From a virus (Duplodnaviria > Heunggongvirae > Uroviricota > Caudoviricetes): a stretch of 64,000 nt of DNA. Positions 5,618 to 19,707 of the stretch are shown in pieces. The DNA is taken from IMG/VR virus record IMGVR_UViG_3300037466_001997, positions 132,142 to 196,141 of that record. One strand, written 5' to 3'. The notes under the pieces were generated by a model. The model saw nothing but the letters and a program-made list of their open reading frames with translations, ran no database searches and was not told the origin of the DNA. The position numbers were made by a program, and so were the translations under genes. How positions within the stretch are numbered: position 1 is the first letter of the stretch; every line of letters begins with the position of its first letter.

Positions 5618-6469
5618 TTACCACTTAAAACTTGTGTTTCTCTTGACGAATGGTGATGCTTCCGAAAAATCCACCACGCCATCGACTTCTTGTCTGAACA
5701 AATCGTTGTCCGCCGTTTTGTCGGAATTTTCTGGATTGATCGATTCATCAACAATGATGCCATCCTCACCATCGATCCCGATATCTTCGGCGGCTTCATC
5801 GGTGATCGGATCACGCAAGATGTCGCCAGAGAACAAATCTTCGATACTATCGATTTCAGTATCACCAGTTTCCAGTTTTTCTTGGCTGTACTGTAGAAGT
5901 TCGACATATAGATCGTAGGTTTGCAGAGCGCCACCCTGATAGAAAATCGAGTCGTGCTGAACGAATTTTATTTCGAACATGCGAGAAAATTGTGATATCC
6001 AAATTAGATCACCTTCACGTGGGCGATCATATGGAATGTAGTAACCTTCGATATTGCCTTCTTCCAAGAGGATACCATTCAACTGGTTTGGCAAGTATCG
6101 GCTGGTCATTTCTTGTTCGACAATTGTGTCATATTCCGTCATCAGATGTTCAACACGAACTTCATCCCAACGCTTCTGTGCGATGGTGAGTGTCATTTCT
6201 TCTTGGAACTGTGGTCCGAATTTCGACATCATGCGAGCGCCTTCGAAACCTTCTGCTTGGTTTACATAGGCTTCTAGGGCCACGGCATCATTATATGAGT
6301 TTACGGTAGATTCACCGAATAGATCATCCATGTTGACGGCTGTTCTGGGAAGATAGCTCACCCAAAGACCATACATCTTGATAGTGTCAACGATCAAGTC
6401 TTCATACAGCTTCTGTGTAGGACCATAGATATAGCTATTGACGTACCTATTCGGTGATCTTGAAGTCAT
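5618..6469 (-). CDS. gp14: neck protein (T4 gp14-like)
   Basis: Q.L.EDL....IK.YG..V.YLPR, LFGE, SKFG, RP.EGDLI, FEIKFV, FYQ.G. Confidence 0.93.
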   Translation of the reverse strand: MTSRSPNRYVNSYIYGPTQKLYEDLIVDTIKMYGLWVSYLPRTAVNMDDLFGESTVNSYNDAVALEAYVNQAEGFEGARMMSKFGPQFQEEMTLTIAQKRWDEVRVEHLMTEYDTIVEQEMTSRYLPNQLNGILLEEGNIEGYYIPYDRPREGDLIWISQFSRMFEIKFVQHDSIFYQGGALQTYDLYVELLQYSQEKLETGDTEIDSIEDLFSGDILRDPITDEAAEDIGIDGEDGIIVDESINPENSDKTADNDLFRQEVDGVVDFSEASPFVKRNTSFKW

Positions 6470-6472
6470 TTA

Positions 6473-9400
6473 TTATCTCTTTATGAAGTTATTCAAGTAT
6501 TTATCATATGACAAGTCGTTGTTTTCGTTGGGATTGGTTACGTTTCCTACTGGACCTATCGTTGTATTGGTGTTTTTGGAATAGCCTCTTGTTTCATTTG
6601 CACGAACAAAATTTGTCAAATAATCATCATATTTGAAATACAGTTTTACAGAAACTGTGATAGTTGCATGGCAAACGTCATCTTGCTCATGAACATTCAG
6701 AGTTGCCGTTCTACTTGAACGTGATCCAGTGGCAACACTGGTATCGTCTTCTTCATGAATATTTGAGTTGGCAGCTATACGAAGTGTGCCAGTTGTTGCA
6801 ATATCGTCATCGCCTTCTGTCACAGACAGGTATGCGTGGGTTGATTTTACTCCTGTCGCAATCATAGTATCGTCGGCTTCGAACATAGAAGCCAACGCAC
6901 TGATCATGATCATTGTAGCGGCTACAAGCGTATCATCTTGTTCCGTTACCGATGCAGAAGCTGCAATAGAAATTTTTGCAGCCGCCGAAATATTGTCGTT
7001 ATCTTCCGTTACGGCAAGCTGTGCGGTCGTGTTGCTGGTGTTGACGCTCGACAGAGTATCATCACCTTCCGTTATTGCGGCGCTTGCCTTGATAGCAAGA
7101 GCACCCGTCGAAGATGACGTATCGTTTGTTTCTGTTATCGAACTATTAGCTTTGATCGCTATAGTGGATGTTGATGAAACCGTATCAGCGGCTTCTGTGA
7201 TCGCCGCCGATGCACGATTTGTCGAGAAACCAGTTCCTGACAAAGTATCATCAGCTTCTGTGATTGAGGCAGAAGCTTTTATAGAAAGGGTTGCGGTTGC
7301 GGAACTTGTGTCGTCCGCTTCCGTAATATCTGACACGCCAAGATGGATGCCATTCGAACCCGCCACCAACGTATCATCATCTTCGGTGATTGAGGCCGAT
7401 GCTTTGATAGACGATGTACCAGTGGATGAAACTGTATCGGCAGCTTCTGTAATATTTCCGACAGCACTGATTGAAATTTTAGAAGCGGCTGAAACCGTAT
7501 CATCAGATTCTGTGATCGCCGCCGATGCACGATTTGTCGAGAAACCGGTAGCTGATAGAGTATCGCCAGCTTCTGTTATAGATGATGATCCGGTTAGGAG
7601 TATTGTTCCTGTGCCAGAGACAACATCATTAGCTTCTGTGATAGCAACCGCTGCACGGTTTGTCGAGAAACCAGTTCCTGACAAAGTATCATCTGATTCT
7701 GTAATCGATGCAGTGGCTTTAACCGCCACAGTAGAAGTTGAAGAAACGCTGTCATCGGCTTCTGTAATGGATGCAGTAGCTCTGACCAGAAGGCTTGAAG
7801 CTGACGAAAGTGTGTCATCCGCTTCCGTAATCGATGCAGAGCCTTTTATAGCTGATGTACCAGTGGATGAAACGGTATCGTCAGTTTCCGTAATCGATGC
7901 AGCGGCTTTGATTGTTACAGTAGAAGTTGACGAAACGCTGTCATCGGCTTCTGTAATGGATGCCGTCGCACGGTTTGTCGAGAAACCGGTAGCTGATACG
8001 GTATCATCTGTTTCCGTAATCGATGCAGCGGCTTTGACCGCCACTGTTCCGGTCGAAGAAACCGTGTCACTTGATTCTGTAATCGAGGCGCTGGCCTTGA
8101 TTGCAATGGTTGCTGTCGATGAAACTGTGTCGCCAGCTTCTGTGATCGATGCAGCGGCTTTGATCGTTATAGTAGACGCTGATGAAACGGTATCGTCGGC
8201 TTCCGTGATCGATGCTGTGCCAGAAATGGCACTTAGCAAAGTAGAAGATGCCGACAATGTATCAGCACCTTCTGTTATGGAAACAGAAGCTTTGATAGCT
8301 ATTGTAGACGTTGACGAAACAGTATCATTCTGTTCGACAATTATTGGCGTCGAACCATCATATGCAGTAATATTATAATCATTATAATCTAGGGACGCAA
8401 GGAAAGTACCGTCCGCAGAGCAACTGATTTCCCAATACTGTCCACTGTATGTGCTTGCTGGCGTTATAACAGAATATGTTGTGAAATGGTCTGTAGATTT
8501 GTATATCGCTGCAAATGTACTACCATCGCCACCAGAAACATATTGTATGCTACCGTCATCTGACAACGTTACGTAGTGGAATTCAGATGGACTGTTTATT
8601 GTTTTAGAAGTCCATGATGTACCACCATTTGTCGAATACAAGTAGGTATCTGTTACTGGTGTTGTGGACGAACGGGCCGTTATTGCAATAATTTGACCGT
8701 CAACAGAGCAATCAATGTCTTTATATGCCGAATTGCCGTTCGGGCCGGGCGATGGAATCGTTGTTATCTGAGTCCAACTGCTACCAGAATTAGTGCTTTT
8801 CCAAAGTCCTGTTAAAGTCAGACCATAGATGGTCGAACCGTCGCTTGATAGCGCAAAATCAACCCATGCTCTGGAACCAGCGGCAGTCAGTGACGCCCAT
8901 GTCGAACCCTGATTATATGAGATAACAGGATGTGCAGCGGTTGTACCATTGCGCTCACCAGCGATGATCACAGAACCATCGTTTGACATTCCGATAGCCT
9001 GCCAGTTGCCCGACAGTTCAGCGGAGGCTAGTGCACTTGTAGTGGTCCATGTTACGCCTCTATCGATAGATTTGTAAATGTCACCAAAAGATAGTGGAGC
9101 AATAAGAATGCTACCATCATAATTGCTACCAAATAGATAAGACTGGCCGATAGATATACTTGATAGACCAGTCTGTTGAGTCCAAGTTATACCTTTATCA
9201 GAAGATGTCCAAGGATAGTCATACGCACCAGCGATGATCAATGAACCATCTGGCACGACATATGCACTACCAGACCAATTGAACCCGTTATCGCCAGAAT
9301 TTGTTACATAAAACCCTTTCGGATTATTCGCTTTGATCGGCAGTTTAGCGGCAGATGAAATTGTATCGTCCGCTTCTGTTACGGACGCAGAAGCTTTTAT

Positions 9401-12355
9401 CAATACTGTTGAAGTAGAAGAAACAGTATCGCCAGCTTCTGTTACCGAACTAGAAGCTTTAATGAGAACAGTGGATGTTGACGAAACTGTGTCATCCGCT
9501 TCTGTGATCGAAGCGGTTCCGCTGACACCGGAACTAACTGTTCCGGTCGCTGAAACTGTATCGTCGGCTTCTGTGATCGCAGATGTTGCCTGAACCGCCC
9601 AAGCACCAGAGAAATCGTCCAACAACGGGTTCTGAACGGCTTGTCTAACGTGAACACCAACCTTCGTACCAGTCAGTGTTACACCAAGATTCATGCTTAC
9701 AATTTGAGTGCCGTTTTTAAGCACTCGAATGTTGTCGGTTCCCCAAATTCTGACATCAAAAACGTCGCCAGACACAACGCTTTGGTTGGTGTTGTAGAGG
9801 TTAGTGAAACTGCCTGCTACGACTTTCCAAATTTGGAAGTTAGAACCACTAGCACGAACACCGATATAGTTAGTCGATACGGTTGCATCGGCACGTAAGG
9901 TAACAAATGAGTTTCCAGTTGTATCTAGAAGCTTGAAAGAAACCCATTGATTTGTTTGTTGTAGATCGTAATAGTAATGATCGCCTGTCGCATCAGAAGT
10001 CATGTTCGACAACTGATTGGTTACAATCTGCGCACCACCACCAATACTACCATTTTTCTGCCAAGATGACAGACCGTTGGACATCAGCGCACTACTTTCA
10101 AGTACGCTGTTTGCACGATTGAAATTATCAGTAAATGCTACTGCCGAAAGGCCAATAGACGACGCTGTATCGTCAGCTTCTGTAATCGAGGCAGATGCTT
10201 TTAGAGCTACTTTTGATGCCGATGAAACTGTGTCATCCGCTTCTGTGATCGAACTAGCAGCTTTAATAGCGACCGTTGACGTGGCCGAAACCGTGTCATC
10301 AGCTTCTGTAATCGACGCCGTACCTTTTACAAGGATTGTGGCGGTCGATGCAACTGTGTCATCCGCTTCTGTGGAAGATTCGGTTGCTTTGATCAGAACA
10401 GTGGATGTTGATGCAACTGTGTCACCAGCTTCTGTTATCGAACTATTAGCTTTGATCGCAATAGTAGACGCTGATGCAACTGTGTCATCAGCTTCTGTTA
10501 TCGAAGATGTACCCTTGATAGCGACTGTTGATGTCGATGCAACGGTATCGGCGGCTTCTGTAATAGAGGCAGTACCAGAAATAGGACCAGCCGGTTCCCA
10601 ATTAGAGAAGCCAGAAGGTACAGCATATGTGAATCCGGTATAACCAAAGTTAACCGTAATGGCGATACCAGTTGTAACGGCTGCATAGACCGCAACATAA
10701 CGTGCTGTTCCGGTTAGTGCAGAGACATCCGCACCACCTACACCTGTGGCAGGGTTAGCAGTTCCGGAAGCATTCCAATTGCCGCCATTGATTCTGTACC
10801 AAACCAACTTGGCGACAGGATCGTAAGCCATCGACACAACGTCGCCAGCCGAAATTGGCATAAAGCCCCAGTTGGGGAAGGTTCCATTGATAGAACCAGA
10901 ACCGTTGTCGAATAGACCAAACGAATTGGCGTTATCGCCCGGAAAGTTTGACGTTGTTAGAATGGTTTCATTGCTGATACCAAGAGCAATTTTATTAGAG
11001 CTTGTTGCACCAACAGTGAATTCAACATAAGTTTTAGTTGATGCTCTGCTAGTTGTGCTTCTAACATTCTGATTTCCAGTGGAATTAAGAGTAGCAGTTA
11101 GATTTCCATTGGATAGCGTAAATCCAGAAGTTACAGTATTCGGATCAAGCGTACTTTTTACGATTGTCGATGCTGATGAAACTGTGTCATCAGCTTCCGT
11201 TATAGAAGCTGTACCTTTAAGGGCAATAGTCGATGCTGATGAAACTGTGTCACTAGCTTCCGTTATAGAAGCTGTACCAGAAACGCCGGTTGTTCTGACT
11301 GTATATTCGTTATATTTTATCGTTCCATTGTCATTGACAAAATATGGAATTACAACAGCACTACCACGTTGGTAGATTGCACCATCAATAGATAGAGACG
11401 AATCTGCCGCTGATACTGTACCAGCAAGTGAAGAAGTCTTTCCGCTCCAACTTAGTGACGGACTTGTGGAAGAAACAACATAGATGTCACTGTCGGTTGA
11501 GCTTCTATACAGTGCGTAATATTTTGTTGTACCACCAGAATCATAGAATGGACGAGCAATATCAGCGGTGCTATCAATCTGTGCACTAGAGCTACTGCCA
11601 GAAGAAGTTGTGTTCCACTTATCAGACCAAAGGAAATCTGCGTTACCATCCCAAATGGCCTGAAAGAGGAACGTACCGGAAGTTGCGGAACCACCAGTCC
11701 ATGTATTCAATACGTTGGAACTGTTTAACTGCTTTGCAGCTAGGTTGGTTGCTGCCTGCTTGAAGTAGAAATAGCTGTTGCTGCTACCATCAATGATCGC
11801 TTCTGGCATTGTGTAGTCAACTGTACCACCGGCATCAACAGCAACCGCAGCGGCCCACGTCGCTGTACCAGTTCTTCTGGAATACACGATACGTGCCCAT
11901 GATGAACCCATGGCCGCTCCCTGTGCACCATTGTACAGGATGATCGGTTGACTGTCTGATGTTCTATAGACAATAGAGCATCCGTAAGCGTTTGCCGCCG
12001 CATTTGTTTGTGGGTTAAAACTCGCCTGCACAAGTTCTTTAAGAACAAATGCATCGGTAGACATACTGAATGTTTGATAGTGTATATTTACAGATGTTCC
12101 AGAACCAGAACAGACGGCAAGATGTATAGTATCGCCAACCTGATAACCAGCAAGAAACTGAACAGCGGTAGCATAACCAGTGCTGGTCGCAATGCTTGAC
12201 CAAGAACTAGTTGGATCAGTCGCCTTAAATGCTTGTAGTGTACCGGGTGTTGTTGCGTCACGACCGAAGAAGTAATAGTTTCCACCTGATGATTGAAACG
12301 GACCAACAATTGGAATTGCGGTTGAAATGCCGGATATTGCTAATGGTAATGCCAT
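6473..12355 (-). CDS. 1960-aa repeat-rich fibre/scaffold protein with SPRY-like, ConA/LamG-like and BNR beta-propeller domains
   Basis: About 40 copies of a 21-aa repeat (IKA.ASITEADDTVSST.T..) in blocks of 2/7/4/27, separated by an SPRY-like domain (LSNGNLTAT...YVEF...GDVV..A.D...VW...NG.W), an FTDNFNRAN ConA-like domain and Asp-box repeats (S.D.G.TW). Confidence 0.8.
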   Translation of the reverse strand: MALPLAISGISTAIPIVGPFQSSGGNYYFFGRDATTPGTLQAFKATDPTSSWSSIATSTGYATAVQFLAGYQVGDTIHLAVCSGSGTSVNIHYQTFSMSTDAFVLKELVQASFNPQTNAAANAYGCSIVYRTSDSQPIILYNGAQGAAMGSSWARIVYSRRTGTATWAAAVAVDAGGTVDYTMPEAIIDGSSNSYFYFKQAATNLAAKQLNSSNVLNTWTGGSATSGTFLFQAIWDGNADFLWSDKWNTTSSGSSSSAQIDSTADIARPFYDSGGTTKYYALYRSSTDSDIYVVSSTSPSLSWSGKTSSLAGTVSAADSSLSIDGAIYQRGSAVVIPYFVNDNGTIKYNEYTVRTTGVSGTASITEASDTVSSASTIALKGTASITEADDTVSSASTIVKSTLDPNTVTSGFTLSNGNLTATLNSTGNQNVRSTTSRASTKTYVEFTVGATSSNKIALGISNETILTTSNFPGDNANSFGLFDNGSGSINGTFPNWGFMPISAGDVVSMAYDPVAKLVWYRINGGNWNASGTANPATGVGGADVSALTGTARYVAVYAAVTTGIAITVNFGYTGFTYAVPSGFSNWEPAGPISGTASITEAADTVASTSTVAIKGTSSITEADDTVASASTIAIKANSSITEAGDTVASTSTVLIKATESSTEADDTVASTATILVKGTASITEADDTVSATSTVAIKAASSITEADDTVSSASKVALKASASITEADDTASSIGLSAVAFTDNFNRANSVLESSALMSNGLSSWQKNGSIGGGAQIVTNQLSNMTSDATGDHYYYDLQQTNQWVSFKLLDTTGNSFVTLRADATVSTNYIGVRASGSNFQIWKVVAGSFTNLYNTNQSVVSGDVFDVRIWGTDNIRVLKNGTQIVSMNLGVTLTGTKVGVHVRQAVQNPLLDDFSGAWAVQATSAITEADDTVSATGTVSSGVSGTASITEADDTVSSTSTVLIKASSSVTEAGDTVSSTSTVLIKASASVTEADDTISSAAKLPIKANNPKGFYVTNSGDNGFNWSGSAYVVPDGSLIIAGAYDYPWTSSDKGITWTQQTGLSSISIGQSYLFGSNYDGSILIAPLSFGDIYKSIDRGVTWTTTSALASAELSGNWQAIGMSNDGSVIIAGERNGTTAAHPVISYNQGSTWASLTAAGSRAWVDFALSSDGSTIYGLTLTGLWKSTNSGSSWTQITTIPSPGPNGNSAYKDIDCSVDGQIIAITARSSTTPVTDTYLYSTNGGTSWTSKTINSPSEFHYVTLSDDGSIQYVSGGDGSTFAAIYKSTDHFTTYSVITPASTYSGQYWEISCSADGTFLASLDYNDYNITAYDGSTPIIVEQNDTVSSTSTIAIKASVSITEGADTLSASSTLLSAISGTASITEADDTVSSASTITIKAAASITEAGDTVSSTATIAIKASASITESSDTVSSTGTVAVKAAASITETDDTVSATGFSTNRATASITEADDSVSSTSTVTIKAAASITETDDTVSSTGTSAIKGSASITEADDTLSSASSLLVRATASITEADDSVSSTSTVAVKATASITESDDTLSGTGFSTNRAAVAITEANDVVSGTGTILLTGSSSITEAGDTLSATGFSTNRASAAITESDDTVSAASKISISAVGNITEAADTVSSTGTSSIKASASITEDDDTLVAGSNGIHLGVSDITEADDTSSATATLSIKASASITEADDTLSGTGFSTNRASAAITEAADTVSSTSTIAIKANSSITETNDTSSSTGALAIKASAAITEGDDTLSSVNTSNTTAQLAVTEDNDNISAAAKISIAASASVTEQDDTLVAATMIMISALASMFEADDTMIATGVKSTHAYLSVTEGDDDIATTGTLRIAANSNIHEEDDTSVATGSRSSRTATLNVHEQDDVCHATITVSVKLYFKYDDYLTNFVRANETRGYSKNTNTTIGPVGNVTNPNENNDLSYDKYLNNFIKR

Positions 12356-12934
12356 TTACAATACCTCACCACTTCCACGACGAATGACCAAATCCGGACC
12401 AACCATCTGTTTCCATTCGGCATCAGTCTTCCAGTTCAAACCACCGAATGAACTTGGTGTTGAACACGAAACCCAATGTGCAACTTTCCCACCGTACAAA
12501 TGCAATGCATTTACCAGAGCTATACATTCTTCGTCTGACAATATAGGCAAACAATCTTCTGTTATAACCCAATCGATATGACCACCAATTGCATTAAGAA
12601 CGTTAGCTCTACTTTGTTCTGTCAAGGAATCTTCATTCAAAATAGGAAGAACTGCGTTTTCATTCAAATTTTGCTGAATCCATCGTGAAATATCAGTATT
12701 GACAATCGGGCCAAGGCCCATATTAATCCAATCTTCTGCAACCCAACCAAAACCAGCACCGATAAGCGCAATGCGCTCGCCGGGTTGAATGTCCAACGCT
12801 TTGGCCAAAACAATATGATCATCGCCAAAAATTTGTTGTTTGGCGATGCGCTCGAAACCAACGTTTCTTCCATCAATCATACAGCTATACAGCTTTGACC
12901 AAGTAGATTCGACATTCATATCGACTAGAGGCAT
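12356..12934 (-). CDS. putative class I SAM-dependent methyltransferase-fold protein
   Basis: ERIALIGAGFGW motif I, NTDIS motif II, DWVITED. Confidence 0.55.
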   Translation of the reverse strand: MPLVDMNVESTWSKLYSCMIDGRNVGFERIAKQQIFGDDHIVLAKALDIQPGERIALIGAGFGWVAEDWINMGLGPIVNTDISRWIQQNLNENAVLPILNEDSLTEQSRANVLNAIGGHIDWVITEDCLPILSDEECIALVNALHLYGGKVAHWVSCSTPSSFGGLNWKTDAEWKQMVGPDLVIRRGSGEVL

Positions 12935-12956
12935 TATTGTTTCCCAGTTGTATATT

Positions 12957-12965
12957 CTATTTAGG
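12957..12965 (-). promoter_or_regulatory. variant late promoter (CTAAATA) for the methyltransferase and 1960-aa genes
   Basis: CCTAAATAG on the - strand just downstream of the terminator. Confidence 0.45.
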
Positions 12966-12970
12966 TCAAC

Positions 12971-12995
12971 AAAAAAGGCGGCACAAAGCCGCCTT
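12971..12995 (-). terminator. rho-independent terminator after the 134-aa gene
   Basis: AAGGCGGC-TTTGT-GCCGCCTT followed by TTTT on the - strand. Confidence 0.85.
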
Positions 12996-13020
12996 ATATT
13001 GTATTTCTATTGAAAAATGA

Positions 13021-13425
13021 TTAAGCGTTACCGGCTGTCAAAGTAAACGAAGTGACCGAGAAAGCCTGACCGGTTGCAAATGAAGTGTTGTCAACTGTCA
13101 TGTCGCCACCGCCACCAGTAGCTGTAACTGTTCCCTGTGCATGGCATGTGCCAGTCGATGAGAAGATACGGAAGTGACCGGCTGTACCGGTAGCGTCCGC
13201 AGATGTGTCCTGCCATGTACCAGACAAAGATTTTGTTCCGGCAGAAGCGTTGGCCATCCAGTCAGATGGTAGAGTACATGTTGCAAGAACTGTACCAGAG
13301 TTAGCGGCTGCGCATGAAGCAGGAGCCGCACCAGACTTGATCAAAAGAACCGCTGAAGTTCCGATTGTCGATTCAACCACGTCCAAACGTGCGTTACGTA
13401 CAGCAACAGAGTATTGTAGTGCCAT
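13021..13425 (-). CDS. small Ala/Thr/Gly-rich beta-sandwich virion protein (candidate fibre/bead subunit)
   Basis: 134 aa, MALQYSVAVRNARLD...ADATGTAGHFRI...SFTLTAGNA; own late promoter, GAGG RBS and terminator. Confidence 0.7.
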   Translation of the reverse strand: MALQYSVAVRNARLDVVESTIGTSAVLLIKSGAAPASCAAANSGTVLATCTLPSDWMANASAGTKSLSGTWQDTSADATGTAGHFRIFSSTGTCHAQGTVTATGGGGDMTVDNTSFATGQAFSVTSFTLTAGNA

Positions 13426-13457
13426 TATAGTATCCTCTTAAGAGTTAGATTTGTATC

Positions 13458-13465
13458 TATTTATA
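13458..13465 (-). promoter_or_regulatory. T4 late promoter
   Basis: exact TATAAATA on the - strand. Confidence 0.8.
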
Positions 13466-13469
13466 AAAC

Positions 13470-14225
13470 TTACAAGCCCGGCCCGAACATATCGGTCAAT
13501 GGAATCGAGAACGAATGAATCATTTCTTCTTCTAGTTCTTCTATTTCCTTTTCGGCTTCGTCAAAAATTCTTTGACCAGTTAGAGTACCGCCGCCAAGAA
13601 GCTTAACGCCTTCAACTAATTTCAAGTTAGCGCCCCATTGTCTCTTGACCAAAGCTGTGGCATAACGGAGAAGCCATTTGTCGGACCATACTTCTGGGAA
13701 TTCATCCGGATCGACGGTTTCATAACAATCAAACACCATGTAATCGCCAACGTTGTATTTTTTCCAATTGGTATCCACATAGATTTTGTTCATTTTTCTG
13801 TTGAAACGAATGCCGGGTGTGGCATTGAATAGTTCCTGAAACAGATTGATATGGCGAAGCGCTAAGTAATATGGGACAATAGAGGATGCAGTAAGATTGA
13901 AGAAATCGGAAAGCATCATCTGATAAGAAACGTCGAATAGATTCTGTGAACTTGACTGTCCAAAACCAAAGTTATCAACCATTTTGGTGATACCAATTAC
14001 GTTGGCTGGTACAGGGATGCATTCGTTTGCGATGTCGTCTGCCGTTAGTCTATACTTGTAGTACGCTGCTTGTGAGCCATCAAAGTGATAGTCTTGGTAA
14101 TATGATAATGCATCGTCAATACGATCTTCCACTTGTTCGGCATCGACGGCAATTTCCACGACAGGGAAGCCGAGACGGCGCATGATATATTCTTTGAATT
14201 GTTTTCTGTTTTGTGGCTGTGCCAT
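13470..14225 (-). CDS. gp13: neck protein (T4 gp13-like)
   Basis: K.YI.RRLG.PV..I.V..EQ.EDRID.AL..Y..YHFDG; WL..YATALVK.QWG.NL. Confidence 0.96.
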   Translation of the reverse strand: MAQPQNRKQFKEYIMRRLGFPVVEIAVDAEQVEDRIDDALSYYQDYHFDGSQAAYYKYRLTADDIANECIPVPANVIGITKMVDNFGFGQSSSQNLFDVSYQMMLSDFFNLTASSIVPYYLALRHINLFQELFNATPGIRFNRKMNKIYVDTNWKKYNVGDYMVFDCYETVDPDEFPEVWSDKWLLRYATALVKRQWGANLKLVEGVKLLGGGTLTGQRIFDEAEKEIEELEEEMIHSFSIPLTDMFGPGL

Positions 14226-14237
14226 GTTATTCCTCTA

Positions 14238-14846
14238 TTATCCAGATACAGGCCAAAGAGCGTCGTTTGTGTAATCGATTGGCACAGGTGAGGTTTGCTT
14301 GATCGCACGACCGGCGAAAATGCATTTGGTTTCCCATGCAGCGGCGGCTTGACCGAAAGCGAAACATGTTTGCGCATCCATCTGGTTCAGGCTATTGTCA
14401 TCGGCAATCCATACGAAATCAGATGTTCCGCCATGCCAGCGATAGTTTCCTGCTTGTGCGCCAGCGGCGACAGCGAAACCGGCCAAGGTAGCAGCACCGA
14501 TGATGCGAGCCTTTGATTCAGAGTCCATTGCATAGGATTTACCGTTGAAGACATATCCAGTTGCAATGCGGCGATCACGTTCGGCGTTGACTTCATCAGT
14601 GGTGATAACTCTATCCGTTAGAACCCATGTAAATTTTGGAATTCCGTTGGTCATAACCACAGTCTGTGACACACCAACCTTTCCATCTGGAATAGCATCA
14701 GCGGGGAGAATTGTTTTAAGAGTATAGGTGCCATTGTCCCAACCGGCATATGCAGGGGAAGTAATTGTATTACCTATAAAAAACGCTGAACCCTCCAAAA
14801 CTTGTTGAGCAACAGTCGAGTCTGATTTCTTTATTAGAGCGAGCAT
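14238..14846 (-). CDS. DUF4376-like tail fibre assembly protein
   Basis: VNAERDRRI..G..FNG, F.WIADDN....M, C-terminal DY...ALWP. Confidence 0.75.
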   Translation of the reverse strand: MLALIKKSDSTVAQQVLEGSAFFIGNTITSPAYAGWDNGTYTLKTILPADAIPDGKVGVSQTVVMTNGIPKFTWVLTDRVITTDEVNAERDRRIATGYVFNGKSYAMDSESKARIIGAATLAGFAVAAGAQAGNYRWHGGTSDFVWIADDNSLNQMDAQTCFAFGQAAAAWETKCIFAGRAIKQTSPVPIDYTNDALWPVSG

Positions 14847-15487
14847 TTTAGCCTTTCATATAATTCAATATCTTTCTCATAGTATTTATTCACCGCAGAC
14901 AAAGAGGCGGCGTCATAGAAGGTGTGGATGTAATCTTTTGTAAGATGACCACGAATGGATTTGTTTTTCCATTCGAGAGGATACTTGACATTGATATTGT
15001 TTTCTTCGACAAATTCATCTATGTGTTTTTGGATGTTATCGAATAACCACCATTTCCCTATCTGTTTTCCTTCGTACTCTAAAAATGATGTTTGCAGTTG
15101 ATTATGCCATGGTCGGTCCGGAAGATAACCATGTTCTGTGACAAGTTTCCTGAAATCATAGACCGTTAGCTTCGGTTCATTTGAAAATTTTTGTTTTTCT
15201 CTGTAAAGAAAAAGAGAAATCACACGTTCTACAGGATGTCGGATTACACCAACGACAGTCTCGGTAGGGTCCAGTAAACCATTTCGAATGGCATAGGTCA
15301 CATCCATATGAGAATGGTTAGCATGGGGTAACGGTACGTTCTGGGATTCTGGTAATATGTCATCAAAGTAATATGAGTAGGAATCTTCCGACTGAACTAC
15401 GTTCCATACGAAGAATTTTCGAACGGATGTCGAAGCATTTTTTGGAACGTTGATGAAATTGAATTTGAAACGCTTGATACTAATCAT
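14834..15487 (-). CDS. sulfotransferase family 2 protein
   Basis: 5'-PSB motif FINVPKNASTSVR; 3'-PB motif IRHPVERVISLF; C-terminal Y.KD.ELY. Confidence 0.85.
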   Translation of the reverse strand: MISIKRFKFNFINVPKNASTSVRKFFVWNVVQSEDSYSYYFDDILPESQNVPLPHANHSHMDVTYAIRNGLLDPTETVVGVIRHPVERVISLFLYREKQKFSNEPKLTVYDFRKLVTEHGYLPDRPWHNQLQTSFLEYEGKQIGKWWLFDNIQKHIDEFVEENNINVKYPLEWKNKSIRGHLTKDYIHTFYDAASLSAVNKYYEKDIELYERLKCSL

Positions 15488-16043
15488 TTAGAAGGAAAGA
15501 ATTCAATGTGAGGCGGATACCAGATGATTTGTATGAGTGCCACGTGACGCCAGTTCGACCAGCAAAGATCATTGTTCGATTTGGCTTCCATTCAATTTGT
15601 TTCACAAAATTTTTATTTTCGTCATAGATCAAAGTCCCTTCGTTGGTGAATGGGTAGAGATAGGTCACAGCCGACAGAACTTTGTCTTCCGCTTCGTCAT
15701 GAATAGGATGTTCTGAATTCTTCATGCATAGTATAACTTCACCATACGGTCGTAATTTTGAATATTTTCTGGTATTGGGAAAGCACGGAATAAACGAGTA
15801 GGTATCCCGACTTTTCAATAATTTTTGGGTTTCTGGAAATTTGGGATTGGTGTAAAGGTTCTCTTTGGATATGAAAATTCCCTCTGCCGACTTGGTTACG
15901 AACGCCGTTTGGTCGGTTTTCAGAACATGAAAAATTTCTCTGATAGCCGTGTCCACCATAGTTTCGTCAAAGTAATCGTCCACAGTCATATGGAACCATG
16001 GTTTAGTGGAAATCGACAACACGCTTTTCGATCCTTTCTTCAT
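15480..16043 (-). CDS. 2OG-Fe(II) oxygenase family protein
   Basis: HxD/E (IHDE), KVLS.V.YL, W.PNR..IF, distal His (TWHSY) and R (RLTLN). Confidence 0.82.
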   Translation of the reverse strand: MKKGSKSVLSISTKPWFHMTVDDYFDETMVDTAIREIFHVLKTDQTAFVTKSAEGIFISKENLYTNPKFPETQKLLKSRDTYSFIPCFPNTRKYSKLRPYGEVILCMKNSEHPIHDEAEDKVLSAVTYLYPFTNEGTLIYDENKNFVKQIEWKPNRTMIFAGRTGVTWHSYKSSGIRLTLNSFLLND

Positions 16044-16848
16044 AACCTTCTTTTGTTATATCTATACAAAGTTCATAGAGATACCACGACAGAAACCGGT
16101 TTAAATCGTTCGGATTCACCGGCTCAATATCTTCCAACTGGCGAGCGGTCGTGATCTTTGGTAAAATCTCTGAAAACGGAGTGGTATCATAGCTGGCACA
16201 TGACTTACCCCGTACCATGGCGTTGACACTTACGCTGGACCATGAACTGAACACTTTGTCAGCACTGTCTAGTAAATGATCTAGATTGCATTCCTTGTCA
16301 GCAAAAATAACATAGTCAGAATTTTGTATACAAATATCGGTCATCGGGTGTTGCTTGAAAACGGTATAGACTTTCCTTTCCTGTGCATAGTTCATGGCGT
16401 CTACCAGATGTCTATACTCGGCATCTATGTTGTCTTGCATCAGGAACAGGTTGTATTTGTCTGGTAAATCTAAAAATTTACCATTTTGAGAATACTTGGT
16501 TTTGATATTAAATGGTTTGATATCAACTTCTTTCCATAGATGCAGGAATGGATTTACCTTATCGAGGTATTGCAGATTCGGAGTGAACGGATAGAATTCT
16601 GTGTTTGGAGTACCGAACCGCCATGTTAGCGTATGTTCAAAATTCATTGGACAGTGAATTTCTGCAAAACAGCAATTACTAAGGTTGCGTTTTTCGAGAA
16701 TGCTATCGACAAGCTTGGCGATCTTCAACACATTTGGGAACATGTAGTGCATTTGTTGGATGTTGCGAACGCCGTACATCCAATGCAGAGCTAAATTATA
16801 ATTCGACTTTATACATGTATTCGCCATCACTACCCACATTCTCGGCAA
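16003..16848 (-). CDS. KpsS/KpsC-like (capsule biosynthesis) GT-B glycosyltransferase-like protein
   Basis: VFKQHP motif and LL..AD.V...SSV...A...GK; true start may be ~16779. Confidence 0.6.
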   Translation of the reverse strand: MPRMWVVMANTCIKSNYNLALHWMYGVRNIQQMHYMFPNVLKIAKLVDSILEKRNLSNCCFAEIHCPMNFEHTLTWRFGTPNTEFYPFTPNLQYLDKVNPFLHLWKEVDIKPFNIKTKYSQNGKFLDLPDKYNLFLMQDNIDAEYRHLVDAMNYAQERKVYTVFKQHPMTDICIQNSDYVIFADKECNLDHLLDSADKVFSSWSSVSVNAMVRGKSCASYDTTPFSEILPKITTARQLEDIEPVNPNDLNRFLSWYLYELCIDITKEGYEERIEKRVVDFH

Positions 16849-17497
16849 TTAATTCGCCACTGACATGTTTCTTGCGAACGCAAATTACCGGGCATCCTGC
16901 TTTAGTGGCATTGGTGATAGTTTTGTCTAGCCAAGATTCGTCCGGTCTGCAAATGAGGCAGACCGCATCTTTAAATTTGTATGTGAGCGCATCAGCCTTA
17001 GCGACCGGATATTCACATAGCTCTGGCGGGTTGATGTCGATACATGTCACGTCGAAACCGGCATCTGATAATATTTTGCCTGTGTGTCCGTTTCCCGCCC
17101 CACACTCGATGATCTTGCGCCCTTGAAACAGTTCTATCATCTTGTCGATAAAAGTTTGATTGGGTTCGAATAGGTGATTCGGCAGAACGGCTAAAATTTG
17201 GGCGAATTGTTCATCTGTGAGCGTTCTATCAGCGTAGTTCGCTATTATATCAGCTTCATGAGCTTTTTTATACTGATCAACAACCTTTTTTGTCCACTTT
17301 TTGGACGATTTTTCTATTAAATCCTTTATTTCAGGAAAAATATAGTTGTTTTGGGAAGCAGGCACCCATTTATTATCAACCACGTGAACGGGTGGAATTT
17401 CGAACTTCGAAACATTCTCATGCATTCCGAGAGAAACGAAATCAAATTTGAGAATCATGTACGGTTTAACGTACTCTATATTTCGTATTTCAAACAT
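16796..17497 (-). CDS. class I SAM-dependent methyltransferase
   Basis: IIECGAGNG motif I, VTCIDI motif II, ADAL. Confidence 0.75.
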   Translation of the reverse strand: MFEIRNIEYVKPYMILKFDFVSLGMHENVSKFEIPPVHVVDNKWVPASQNNYIFPEIKDLIEKSSKKWTKKVVDQYKKAHEADIIANYADRTLTDEQFAQILAVLPNHLFEPNQTFIDKMIELFQGRKIIECGAGNGHTGKILSDAGFDVTCIDINPPELCEYPVAKADALTYKFKDAVCLICRPDESWLDKTITNATKAGCPVICVRKKHVSGELIAENVGSDGEYMYKVEL

Positions 17498-18372: not shown

Positions 18373-19707
18373 TTATTGCATGGCCTGTATGTGCAGATGC
18401 GTTCCTGTGCCACCTTTGGAAATGTAACACTTAAACTTGTTACCACTTGTTGTGGTAAAAGTATCGCCGGTAACCTTTGTCCAACCGGAAGTGGTGATCG
18501 CACCAGCAGAAGCACCGTTGGTGTATTCAACGATCATGGTCAAAGAACCGGTTGTTGTTGGTGGAGCAAGAGTATGTGCACCATTGTTGGTTACTTCACG
18601 GAAAGAACCGGTCAATGGGCTTGGTGTATATGTGCCAGATGACAAAGTTCCGTCTGAAACAGCGGTCGTTGGATAACCGGCTGTTAGTGTCTTTGTAGCA
18701 TTCGACTTTACTGTGTTTGCATCGTATCCTTGAACTGTCACACCAATCGCTTTTTGCAATTGAAGTGGTGTAATAGCCTTGGCATTGTTCGTTCCACCAA
18801 TTGTGTCTGTATAGACGGCAACTTGGATGACGCCAGATGCAGTGTTTGACGATGCACCAACTGTCAGAGACGGATTGCCAGCAACACCATCGGCATTCGA
18901 GATACCCAGTGGGGCTGAAACGGCAATGGAACGCTGTGCCCATGTGTCTGTAGAGATACGAACCGCAAATCCTGTCGATGCAAGAGCTTCGATAGCAGCC
19001 AAGTCGTTAACCAAGGAAATTGTAGGATTACCGGCTACACCGTCGCCATTGGATATGGTCACACCGGTTGATGGTGCAACGATTGTTCGTTGCGACCATG
19101 TATCTGTCGCCGTTCTCACAGCAAAGCCAGTGGATACGAACGATTCGATTGCGGCCAAGTCATTGGCCAAGGCGAATGTTGGGTTACCGGCTACGCCAGT
19201 GTTGTTGCTGATTGAGATACCAGACGATGGTGCAACAAGCGATCTTTGCGCCCATGTGTCGGCAGCGGTGCGCACTGCAAATCCGGTCGATGCAAGAGCC
19301 TCGATTGCGGCCAAGTCATTGACGAGAGTGATTGTAGGGTCGCCAGAAAGACCATCGCCATTTGTAACAGAAATACCAGTTGTCGGACCACTGATTGTTC
19401 GAACGACCATTGTGTTTGAACTGGTTTTGACAACGATGCCGTTAGAAGACAGAGAAGATACAGCGACAATATTTGGCGATGCCAATGTGCTGTTGATACT
19501 TGAAATCTGTGAATTGATTGTAACAACGTTGGCCGATAGTCTCGTTGTCGTGGTTTTCAGCGTGACAACGTTAGCAGAAATTGGAGGAATAGAATTGTTG
19601 ACAGCATTAATGTCAACAACCATTTTATTGGTATTGTTGGCCCACTGTCTAAAAGTGACAGGTGATGTACTTGAAATATCCAAAATCTGGGAAGTAATGA
19701 CCGGCAT
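18373..19707 (-). CDS. tail/collar fibre protein with four ~52-aa repeats
   Basis: N-terminal coiled coil; repeats NDLAAIEALASTGFAVRT...GVAGNPT; AS....G..Q.A fibre motif. Confidence 0.75.
   Translation of the reverse strand: MPVITSQILDISSTSPVTFRQWANNTNKMVVDINAVNNSIPPISANVVTLKTTTTRLSANVVTINSQISSINSTLASPNIVAVSSLSSNGIVVKTSSNTMVVRTISGPTTGISVTNGDGLSGDPTITLVNDLAAIEALASTGFAVRTAADTWAQRSLVAPSSGISISNNTGVAGNPTFALANDLAAIESFVSTGFAVRTATDTWSQRTIVAPSTGVTISNGDGVAGNPTISLVNDLAAIEALASTGFAVRISTDTWAQRSIAVSAPLGISNADGVAGNPSLTVGASSNTASGVIQVAVYTDTIGGTNNAKAITPLQLQKAIGVTVQGYDANTVKSNATKTLTAGYPTTAVSDGTLSSGTYTPSPLTGSFREVTNNGAHTLAPPTTTGSLTMIVEYTNGASAGAITTSGWTKVTGDTFTTTSGNKFKCYISKGGTGTHLHIQAMQ

What the first reader, a model, noticed from the sequence alone, without database searches (positions are those of the whole stretch)
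6473..13465. Candidate templated 'bead-on-a-string' virion filament: a 40-repeat scaffold plus a separately expressed 134-aa subunit, inserted between gp13 and gp14
Seen: the 1960-aa protein has about 40 copies of a 21-aa beta-strand-like repeat (IKA.ASITEADDTVSST.T..), in blocks of 2, 7, 4 and 27. The 134-aa Ala/Thr-rich gene sits between its own exact TATAAATA promoter (13458-65) and a strong terminator (12971-95). The downstream methyltransferase and 1960-aa genes appear to have only a variant promoter, so the small protein should be made in large excess. Known: gp13 and gp14 are normally adjacent neck genes, and T4 neck whiskers (Wac) are coiled coils, unlike this. Inference: each repeat donates strand(s) to one copy of the small subunit, like pilus donor-strand complementation but with a single ruler chain. 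That would give a flexible neck or head filament whose length is set by repeat number and which displays lectin domains.
Basis: partly seen in the sequence, partly recalled or inferred. Interest (0 to 1): 0.85.

Follow-up and report, generated by a model that had tools for sequence, protein, structure and literature searches.

The report
Long beads-on-a-rope fibre, T4-like phage
An uncultured T4-like phage carries the genes for a 'beads-on-a-rope' virion fibre of a kind already solved in a few other phages: pairs of a small protein are predicted to thread onto 40 repeats of one long chain, which would give a fibre several times longer than the solved ones.

Summary
Observation confirmed: 40 repeats of 21 aa in blocks of 2, 7, 4 and 27, and the 134-aa gene with its own late promoter and terminator. 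The mechanism is largely right but known. The 134-aa protein is a homologue of the A1002 gp40 fibre bead (PDB 44NX, E 1e-12). It shares its fold with the Bas63/Sf14 whiskers and GP4 gp80, which sit as dimers on a 'rope' that completes their beta-sandwich. A model of four beads on two repeats scored 0.76 (best control 0.00; 116/157 solved and 2/215 mismatched pairs pass; likeness to solved complexes may explain it). Likely two beads per repeat, so about 80:1, not 40:1. Repeat proteins lie beside 65 of 80 bead loci, and beads beside 19 of 20 repeat loci. Against: repeats alone give a low-confidence beta-helix (pLDDT 59); no virion data. Different from solved fibres: T4-like setting, 40 sites (solved: 2-11), four globular domains in line, no Gp77 collar match (anchor unknown), and a methyltransferase-fold gene that travels with the tip domain. 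This scan has noted rope-and-bead cassettes on other DNA at least 21 times, one with about 61 repeats.

The parts
13470..14225 (-). gp13-type head-tail adaptor (flanking gene)
   Evidence: phrog_211 Ad2, E 2e-37
13458..13465 (-). T4-type late promoter TATAAATA of the bead gene
   Evidence: same site before the bead gene in L001 and L007; motif identity recalled from T4
13021..13425 (-). 134-aa bead subunit (N-terminal helix + incomplete beta-sandwich), predicted dimer
   Evidence: phrog_3758 virion structural protein E 1e-35; profile hits 44NX_B E 4.7e-10 and 1.3e-12; model pLDDT 89.9; fold matches 9RKV, 9C39, 9MT4, 8JOU
12971..12995 (-). Intrinsic terminator after the bead gene
   Evidence: hairpin + T-run also after the bead gene in L001, L003, L007
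12958..12964 (-). CTAAATA late-promoter variant for the methyltransferase-rope operon
   Evidence: kept in L001 and L007
12356..12934 (-). 192-aa class I methyltransferase-fold protein, stop codon abutting the rope start
   Evidence: Atlas features and structure; homologues only directly upstream of the rope's N-terminal domain type, 21 of 21
6473..12355 (-). 1960-aa rope (scaffold) protein
11285..12355 (-). Rope N-terminal domain (aa 1-357), likely BNR-type beta-propeller, likely distal tip
   Evidence: 4 of 12 homologues hit BNR_2, best E 1e-4; the window copy itself none
11159..11284 (-). Repeat block 1 (2 x 21 aa), used in the complex model
10586..11155 (-). SPRY-like beta-sandwich domain
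   Evidence: PF00622 E 2e-4, 21.8 bits, under the 26.3 cut-off
10142..10582 (-). Repeat block 2 (7 repeats)
9596..10138 (-). About 180-aa globular domain of unproven fold (jelly-roll suspected)
   Evidence: phrog_2804 virion structural protein E 1.5e-4; Atlas lead PelX_N 0.93 in 1 of 30 hits; homologue P0288
9338..9595 (-). Repeat block 3 (4 repeats)
8360..9334 (-). BNR/Asp-box beta-propeller domain
   Evidence: PF15902 E 2.9e-10 above cut-off, BNR_6, BNR_2
6650..8359 (-). Repeat block 4 (27 repeats)
6473..6649 (-). 58-aa C-terminal tail, likely virion anchor
   Evidence: 56-69% identical in L001 and L007-type ropes at the same gp13-gp14 site; different tail where the cassette lies by the portal; anchor role inferred
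5618..6469 (-). gp14-type head closure (flanking gene), with its own ATAAATA site at 6498 inside the rope's end
   Evidence: PF11649, phrog_460

Best explanation
The cassette most likely builds a chain-like virion fibre in which dimers of the 134-aa protein are predicted to thread onto the 40 repeats of the 1960-aa rope, one dimer per repeat. Each repeat has two short strands around a TE..D turn. In the model each strand fills the open edge of one bead's beta-sandwich, between bead strands 108-113 and 120-134. One rope would carry about 80 beads; the bead's own promoter, terminator and codon use fit that demand. By analogy with Bas63 and A1002 the C-terminal end is likely the anchor and the N-terminal propeller the tip, with SPRY-like, unknown and BNR domains as nodes along the chain, probably for binding cell-surface or soil polymers. 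Repeat number would set the length: about 110 nm at A1002 spacing (about 300 A for 11 dimers), at most about 280 nm if fully extended. Shown: sequence anatomy, homology, fold match, co-occurrence. Predicted: binding and 2:1 ratio. Inferred: virion location, neck anchor (about 55%; head or portal vertex about 30%), length rule, adhesion role.
For: Profile of bead homologues hits PDB 44NX_B, 147 aa (E 4.7e-10; 1.3e-12); A1002 gp40 is 147 aa and is in 44NX, so I take it to be gp40. Fold search: 9RKV_A Z 14.4, Sf14 neck 9C39_K Z 10.8, GP4 8JOU_a Z 7.0; Bas63 connector chains TM 0.46-0.65 by query. Bas63 paper: whisker dimers wrap the rope 'such as beads on a string', rope completes incomplete sandwiches. 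Complex: ipSAE 0.76, best of 3 controls 0.00; mark reached by 116 of 157 solved and 2 of 215 mismatched pairs (rough here); runs agree in 97% of contacts, partner pLDDT 90-91; all four copies touch, each on its own roughly 10-residue stretch. A1002 rope 243-468 holds 11 dimers, 20.5 residues each (my arithmetic). Tandem repeat ORFs in 65 of 80 bead loci, 0 on the opposite strand, 0 of 83 after shuffling; 12 of the 15 misses have under 3 kb downstream. Bead gene in 19 of 20 repeat loci (8 are contigs already found, 11 of 12 new ones). GP4-type Gp77 adaptor directly follows the rope in L020, L033, L040, L083. Repeats and two beads are fused in one chain in P0151 and P0266. Bead codon use ranks 3 of 208, rope 25.
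Against: No virion, RNA or protein data. The complex pass may come from likeness to solved fibres, and I imposed four copies. Seven repeats alone fold as a three-strand-per-repeat beta-helix at pLDDT 58.8, pTM 0.59, so autonomous folding is not excluded. The repeat profile matches no PDB chain. The closest fold, 9RKV_A, is probably the 7-7-1 garland protein, described without a rope, and no rope was identified in VP1. Three bead loci with 7.5-10 kb downstream have no detected repeat protein. No Gp77 collar and no Pfam Gp80 match in this genome.
Confidence: 0.85

Rival explanations
1. The repeats fold on their own into a triangular beta-helix stalk, and the small protein is a separate cap or decoration.
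For: AlphaFold2 best model of 7 repeats is a regular three-strand helix; very regular 21-aa period.
Against: That model is low-confidence (five models 33.5-58.8 pLDDT, 2 residues above 70). Two repeats reach pLDDT 90-91 with beads and 26 with an unrelated partner (a different method). Blocks of only 2-4 repeats are common, and two-way co-occurrence is strong.
Confidence: 0.07
2. The bead works mostly without the rope, as a garland or decoration dimer on baseplate or capsid, and only a few repeats are occupied.
For: Best structural match is a 7-7-1 tail-fibre-complex chain, probably the garland; 3 long bead loci lack a detected rope.
Against: Closest sequence match is the rope-bound gp40; every repeat keeps the same pattern; bead-repeat fusions exist.
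Confidence: 0.05
3. The pair forms a fibre that is not attached to the virion (released at lysis or displayed on the infected cell).
For: No known collar gene here; some distant bead homologues start with signal-peptide-like sequences (read by eye).
Against: Late promoters, place in the neck operon, PHROG label 'virion structural protein'; no evident signal peptide on either window protein; C-tail changes with genomic context.
Confidence: 0.03

Closest known systems
Chain-like fibre of Pseudomonas podophage A1002: gp40/gp41 dimers on nozzle-rope gp39 (PMC13730344; PDB 44NX)
   Same: Bead is a sequence homologue of the 147-aa chain (E 1e-12); about 20.5 rope residues per dimer; augmented beta-sheet with the rope; globular domain at the free N-terminal end.
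   Different: 11 dimers of two bead types on a rope fused to the nozzle; here one bead type, 40 sites in four blocks, stand-alone rope, myophage; rope sequences show no detectable likeness.
Collar-whisker of Bas63 and Sf14 (PMC12609058, PMC11821841; PDB 9MT4, 9C39)
   Same: Same bead fold (Z 10.8 to 9C39_K); dimers threaded on a rope at a myophage neck.
   Different: Two dimers per rope; rope is the N-terminal arm of an Ig-like collar protein; no in-line domains. No such collar matched here.
Fibre I of Ralstonia podophage GP4 (gp80 dimers, separate rope, gp77 adaptor; PDB 8JOU; paper not read, known and Pfam PF23140/PF23148)
   Same: Separately encoded rope; fold match Z 7.0; Gp77 follows the rope in several related loci.
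   Different: Five dimers; the bead here does not hit PF23140 (0 of 47 homologues) and the genome has no PF23148 match.
Garland of Agrobacterium phage 7-7-1 (PMC12796354; PDB 9RKV_A, assignment inferred)
   Same: Best fold match (Z 14.4, rmsd 2.3 A, 131 residues) and profile hit E 2.4e-5; homodimer.
   Different: Baseplate ring of 36 dimers with no rope described.
Bead-chain neck fibre of cyanophage A-1(L) (PMC10966104)
   Same: Beaded neck fibre with a distal carbohydrate-binding module.
   Different: Trimeric beads joined head to tail, no rope; not among the fold hits.

Membership tests
GP4/Bas63/A1002 rope-and-bead (chain-like) fibres | Small bead with N-terminal helix and incomplete beta-sandwich, homologous to gp40/whisker/gp80 | tested here: met
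GP4/Bas63/A1002 rope-and-bead (chain-like) fibres | Rope chain with about 20-residue docking units encoded with the bead | tested here: met
   40 x 21 aa; co-occurrence 65/80 and 19/20
GP4/Bas63/A1002 rope-and-bead (chain-like) fibres | Rope strands complete the bead sandwiches, one dimer per unit | tested here: inconclusive
   Predicted only: score 0.76 vs best control 0.00, four copies on two repeats; may reflect likeness to solved complexes
GP4/Bas63/A1002 rope-and-bead (chain-like) fibres | Fibre present on the virion | not testable with these tools
   Uncultured phage; only the PHROG label and gene context
GP4 fibre I proper (Gp80 + Gp77 collar) | Bead in Pfam PF23140 Gp80 | tested here: not met
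   only an Atlas lead at 0.85
GP4 fibre I proper (Gp80 + Gp77 collar) | Ig-like Gp77 fibre-tail adaptor | tested here: not met
   0 matches in the 196-kb record; a diverged collar could be missed
T4 Wac/fibritin whisker | Trimeric coiled coil with foldon (PF07921) | tested here: not met
   Repeats modelled as beta; no PF07921 match in the genome
Autonomous beta-solenoid stalk | Repeats fold stably alone | tested here: inconclusive
   pLDDT 58.8 beta-helix
Class I SAM-dependent methyltransferase (192-aa gene) | Rossmann-like MTase fold | tested here: met
   Atlas TM 0.67-0.73 to Methyltransf clusters; 2 of 8 homologues have weak Pfam hits
Class I SAM-dependent methyltransferase (192-aa gene) | SAM binding and methyl transfer | not testable with these tools
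   No assay; substrate unknown

The most novel reading that the evidence does not exclude
T4-like soil phages build 110-280 nm rope-templated fibres of about 80 beads, strung with swappable adhesin nodes and plugged into the T4-type neck by a short new anchor tail with no Gp77 collar. The methyltransferase-fold protein is a dedicated partner of the tip propeller, modifying it or riding on it, and the pair moves as a unit between different rope and bead types.
Probability: 0.3. Interest if true: 0.65.

Novelty: new variant of a known kind. Interest (0 to 1): 0.4.

Why it matters
The solved rope-and-bead fibres hold 2 to 11 bead dimers. This cassette suggests that the same design scales to 40 sites with globular domains in line and reaches T4-like myophages. 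The bead family is large (over 8000 hits at 90% clustering; 4302 clusters at 50%) and nearly unannotated, and the 21-aa repeat gives a sequence handle for reading fibre length from genomes. It is a simple two-gene system for testing a tape-measure rule for fibre length in E. coli, and a possible length-programmable protein scaffold. The methyltransferase-tip coupling is a specific, testable lead. The principle itself is published and recurs often in this scan, which caps the interest.

Tried and rejected
Single-sequence PDB search with the bead gave only chance MS2 coat hits; profiles were needed. The whole rope, its N-terminal profile and the repeat profile found no PDB chain. Sigma-70 promoter scan was at chance level (30 vs 32). 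A mixed alignment for folding rope residues 1-922 was misaligned and dropped, so the N-terminal and third domains were not folded. A viral scan for the third domain found nothing. A-1(L) bead-chain fibre and phiKZ whiskers were read and set aside as other architectures. Wac-like coiled coil rejected. 'Variant promoter is weak' not supported. A rigid regex found far fewer partner proteins than the profile because a 20-aa repeat variant exists (vs 37). No RNA holder listed. Contigs of four DNA runs cover pieces of the cassette with no listed differences, but none spans it, so the repeat count has no independent check; the one joint has a 24-letter side and likely comes from another organism. Paper searches showed no T4-like rope fibre and no methyltransferase tied to a fibre tip; the library lacks most subscription papers, one search was seen as a listing only, and no supplements were opened.

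Full report
Observation. The window is part of a 196,141-base virus record with T4-type genes: portal, protease, scaffold, major head protein, sheath and tube, and gp13, gp14, gp15 types. Between gp13 and gp14 lie three genes on the minus strand: 134 aa, 192 aa and 1960 aa. The 1960-aa protein has 40 copies of a 21-aa repeat in blocks of 2, 7, 4 and 27, 66-76% alike in DNA. The 134-aa gene has TATAAATA 33 nt upstream and a terminator behind it; CTAAATA follows, 24 nt before the 192-aa gene, whose stop codon abuts the rope's start codon. The variant promoter also precedes the sheath and scaffold genes, so it need not be weak. The case for excess bead rests on the terminator, kept in L001, L003 and L007 but not seen in L018, and on codon use: against a reference of head, sheath and tube genes the bead ranks 3 of 208 genes, the rope 25 and the methyltransferase 62 (the reference genes themselves are ranks 1, 4 and 8).

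The small protein. It is phrog_3758 'virion structural protein' with no Pfam family. Profiles of 46 and 47 homologues hit PDB 44NX_B over the full length (E 4.7e-10, 1.3e-12) and 9RKV_A (E 2.4e-5). In PMC13730344 (abstract, passages and sections 9, 11, 12 read) 44NX holds the A1002 fibre proteins; gp40 is 147 aa, the length of the hit, so I take the hit to be gp40. There, 11 fibre dimers bind in tandem to a rope-like domain of gp39, each forming an augmented beta-sheet with it. The AlphaFold2 model (pLDDT 89.9) matches 9RKV_A (Z 14.4, rmsd 2.3, 131 aligned), Sf14 9C39_K (Z 10.8, rmsd 2.4, 108 aligned) and GP4 8JOU_a (Z 7.0, rmsd 4.1, 103 aligned), and five Bas63 connector chains. PMC12609058 (passages) describes Bas63 whisker dimers wrapped on a collar rope like beads on a string, the rope completing incomplete sandwiches, two dimers per rope against five in GP4. 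The GP4 and VP1 papers were not read.

Do the repeats bind it? Four bead copies with the isolated two-repeat block (rope aa 357-400) scored 0.76 against a best control of 0.00; 116 of 157 solved and 2 of 215 mismatched pairs reach the mark, roughly applicable here; runs agree in at least 97% of contacts and the peptide's pLDDT is 90-91. All 44 residues are in the interface. The best-placed pairs put copy 2 near residue 8, copy 1 at 17-19, copy 3 at 23-31 and copy 4 at 34-38, always at bead strands 108-113 and 120-134. That is two beads per repeat, in line with 226 residues for 11 dimers in A1002. I chose four copies, and like complexes are solved, so the model shows likeness, not binding. Against: seven repeats alone, with a 16-row alignment, gave a beta-helix with three strands per repeat at pLDDT 58.8 (five models 33.5-58.8). 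This keeps the solenoid reading alive at low odds.

Co-occurrence. Of the best 80 of 209 viral loci with a bead gene, 65 have a same-strand ORF with tandem 20- or 21-aa repeats; none was called on the other strand or after shuffling. Of the 15 misses, 12 have under 3 kb downstream and 3 have 7.5-10 kb. Many loci are near-duplicates, so these are not independent counts. Two of three cultured phages were missed by the profile but carry 20-23-aa periodic proteins (Pan4, Mwe-JY26). Searching with the repeats gave 20 loci, 19 with a bead gene; the miss has 1.8 kb upstream; 8 of the 20 were contigs already found. Repeat numbers in the bead loci run from 2 to 35. In L020, L033, L040 and L083 the gene after the rope is Pfam Gp77, the GP4 fibre-tail adaptor. 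P0151 and P0266 fuse repeats to two bead domains, and P0138 and P0142 fuse two beads, which fits a dimer unit.

What differs. The rope has 40 sites broken by globular domains: a likely BNR-type propeller at the N-terminus (4 of 12 homologues hit BNR_2), a SPRY-like domain under Pfam's cut-off, a domain of unproven fold and a BNR propeller. The genome has no match to Gp77, Gp80 or the fibritin foldon. The 58-aa C-tail is kept in relatives that have the cassette between gp13 and gp14, while L003/L056 have the cassette next to the portal with another tail; I infer the tail is the anchor and that the site is open. The 192-aa protein has a class I methyltransferase fold. Its homologues occur in 21 of 115 loci, each directly upstream of a gene with the rope's N-terminal domain (21 of 26 such loci, about 10 distinct lineages against 3 without; none of the other 89 loci). 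The pair also sits with other bead types, including a true Gp80 in L111 and a Gp77-linked rope in L113. So it follows the tip domain, not the bead. Its activity is untested.

Verdict. A real feature and most likely a rope-and-bead virion fibre (0.85). The principle is published; eight paper searches found no T4-like case, within a library that lacks most subscription papers. Earlier scan notes describe the same kind in at least 21 genomes, with ropes of about 42 and 61 repeats, so the length is no record within the scan. New variant of a known kind; interest 0.4.

Noticed in passing
L001:11075-18252 (same contig as L088): The rope of a close relative is split inside its BNR propeller: a 1327-aa ORF ends with the first half, a 677-aa ORF starts with the second half and carries 21 repeats and the C-tail; a 374-aa gene lies between. 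Either two ropes join by rebuilding a propeller, or the gene is broken.
   Followed up: partly
window 12356-12934 and L027, L104, L106, L111-L114: Methyltransferase-fold gene is always directly upstream of the rope's N-terminal domain type, across unrelated phages.
   Followed up: partly
L107:1480-1818: Where the methyltransferase is missing, a CxxCxxCC-type small gene (PF03692, E 0.005, under cut-off) stands in the same place; its link to flagellin methylases is recalled, not tested.
   Followed up: no
P0151, P0138, P0142, P0266: Tandem bead-bead fusions, some with signal-peptide-like starts; P0151 joins a beta-helix-like and a LamG-like domain (read by eye), three repeats and two beads in one chain: a possible secreted, self-complementing form.
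   Followed up: partly
L003:10001-18931, L056: The same bead-methyltransferase-rope cassette (2616-2658 aa, 33-35 repeats) lies beside the portal and prohead core genes, with a different C-tail.
   Followed up: partly
window 14834-17497: Sulfotransferase (PF03567) and weak methyltransferase genes with two unknown genes sit upstream of gp13 in the late region and are kept in L001 and L007: a possible virion or glycan modification cassette.
   Followed up: no
window 18373-19707: 444-aa repeat-bearing structural protein (phrog_697) at about the place where T4 has wac; could be the ordinary neck fibre or the rope's anchor.
   Followed up: no
P0122: A 1140-aa protein joins the same N-terminal domain, a long Ala/Ser/Val-rich stretch of another type and a C-terminal Gp77 domain, as in the Bas63 collar-rope layout.
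   Followed up: partly
L081:12177-12983; L082:9337-11229: Cultured phages Seuss and Pan4 carry the bead and a 21- or 20-aa periodic protein: ready test systems.
   Followed up: partly
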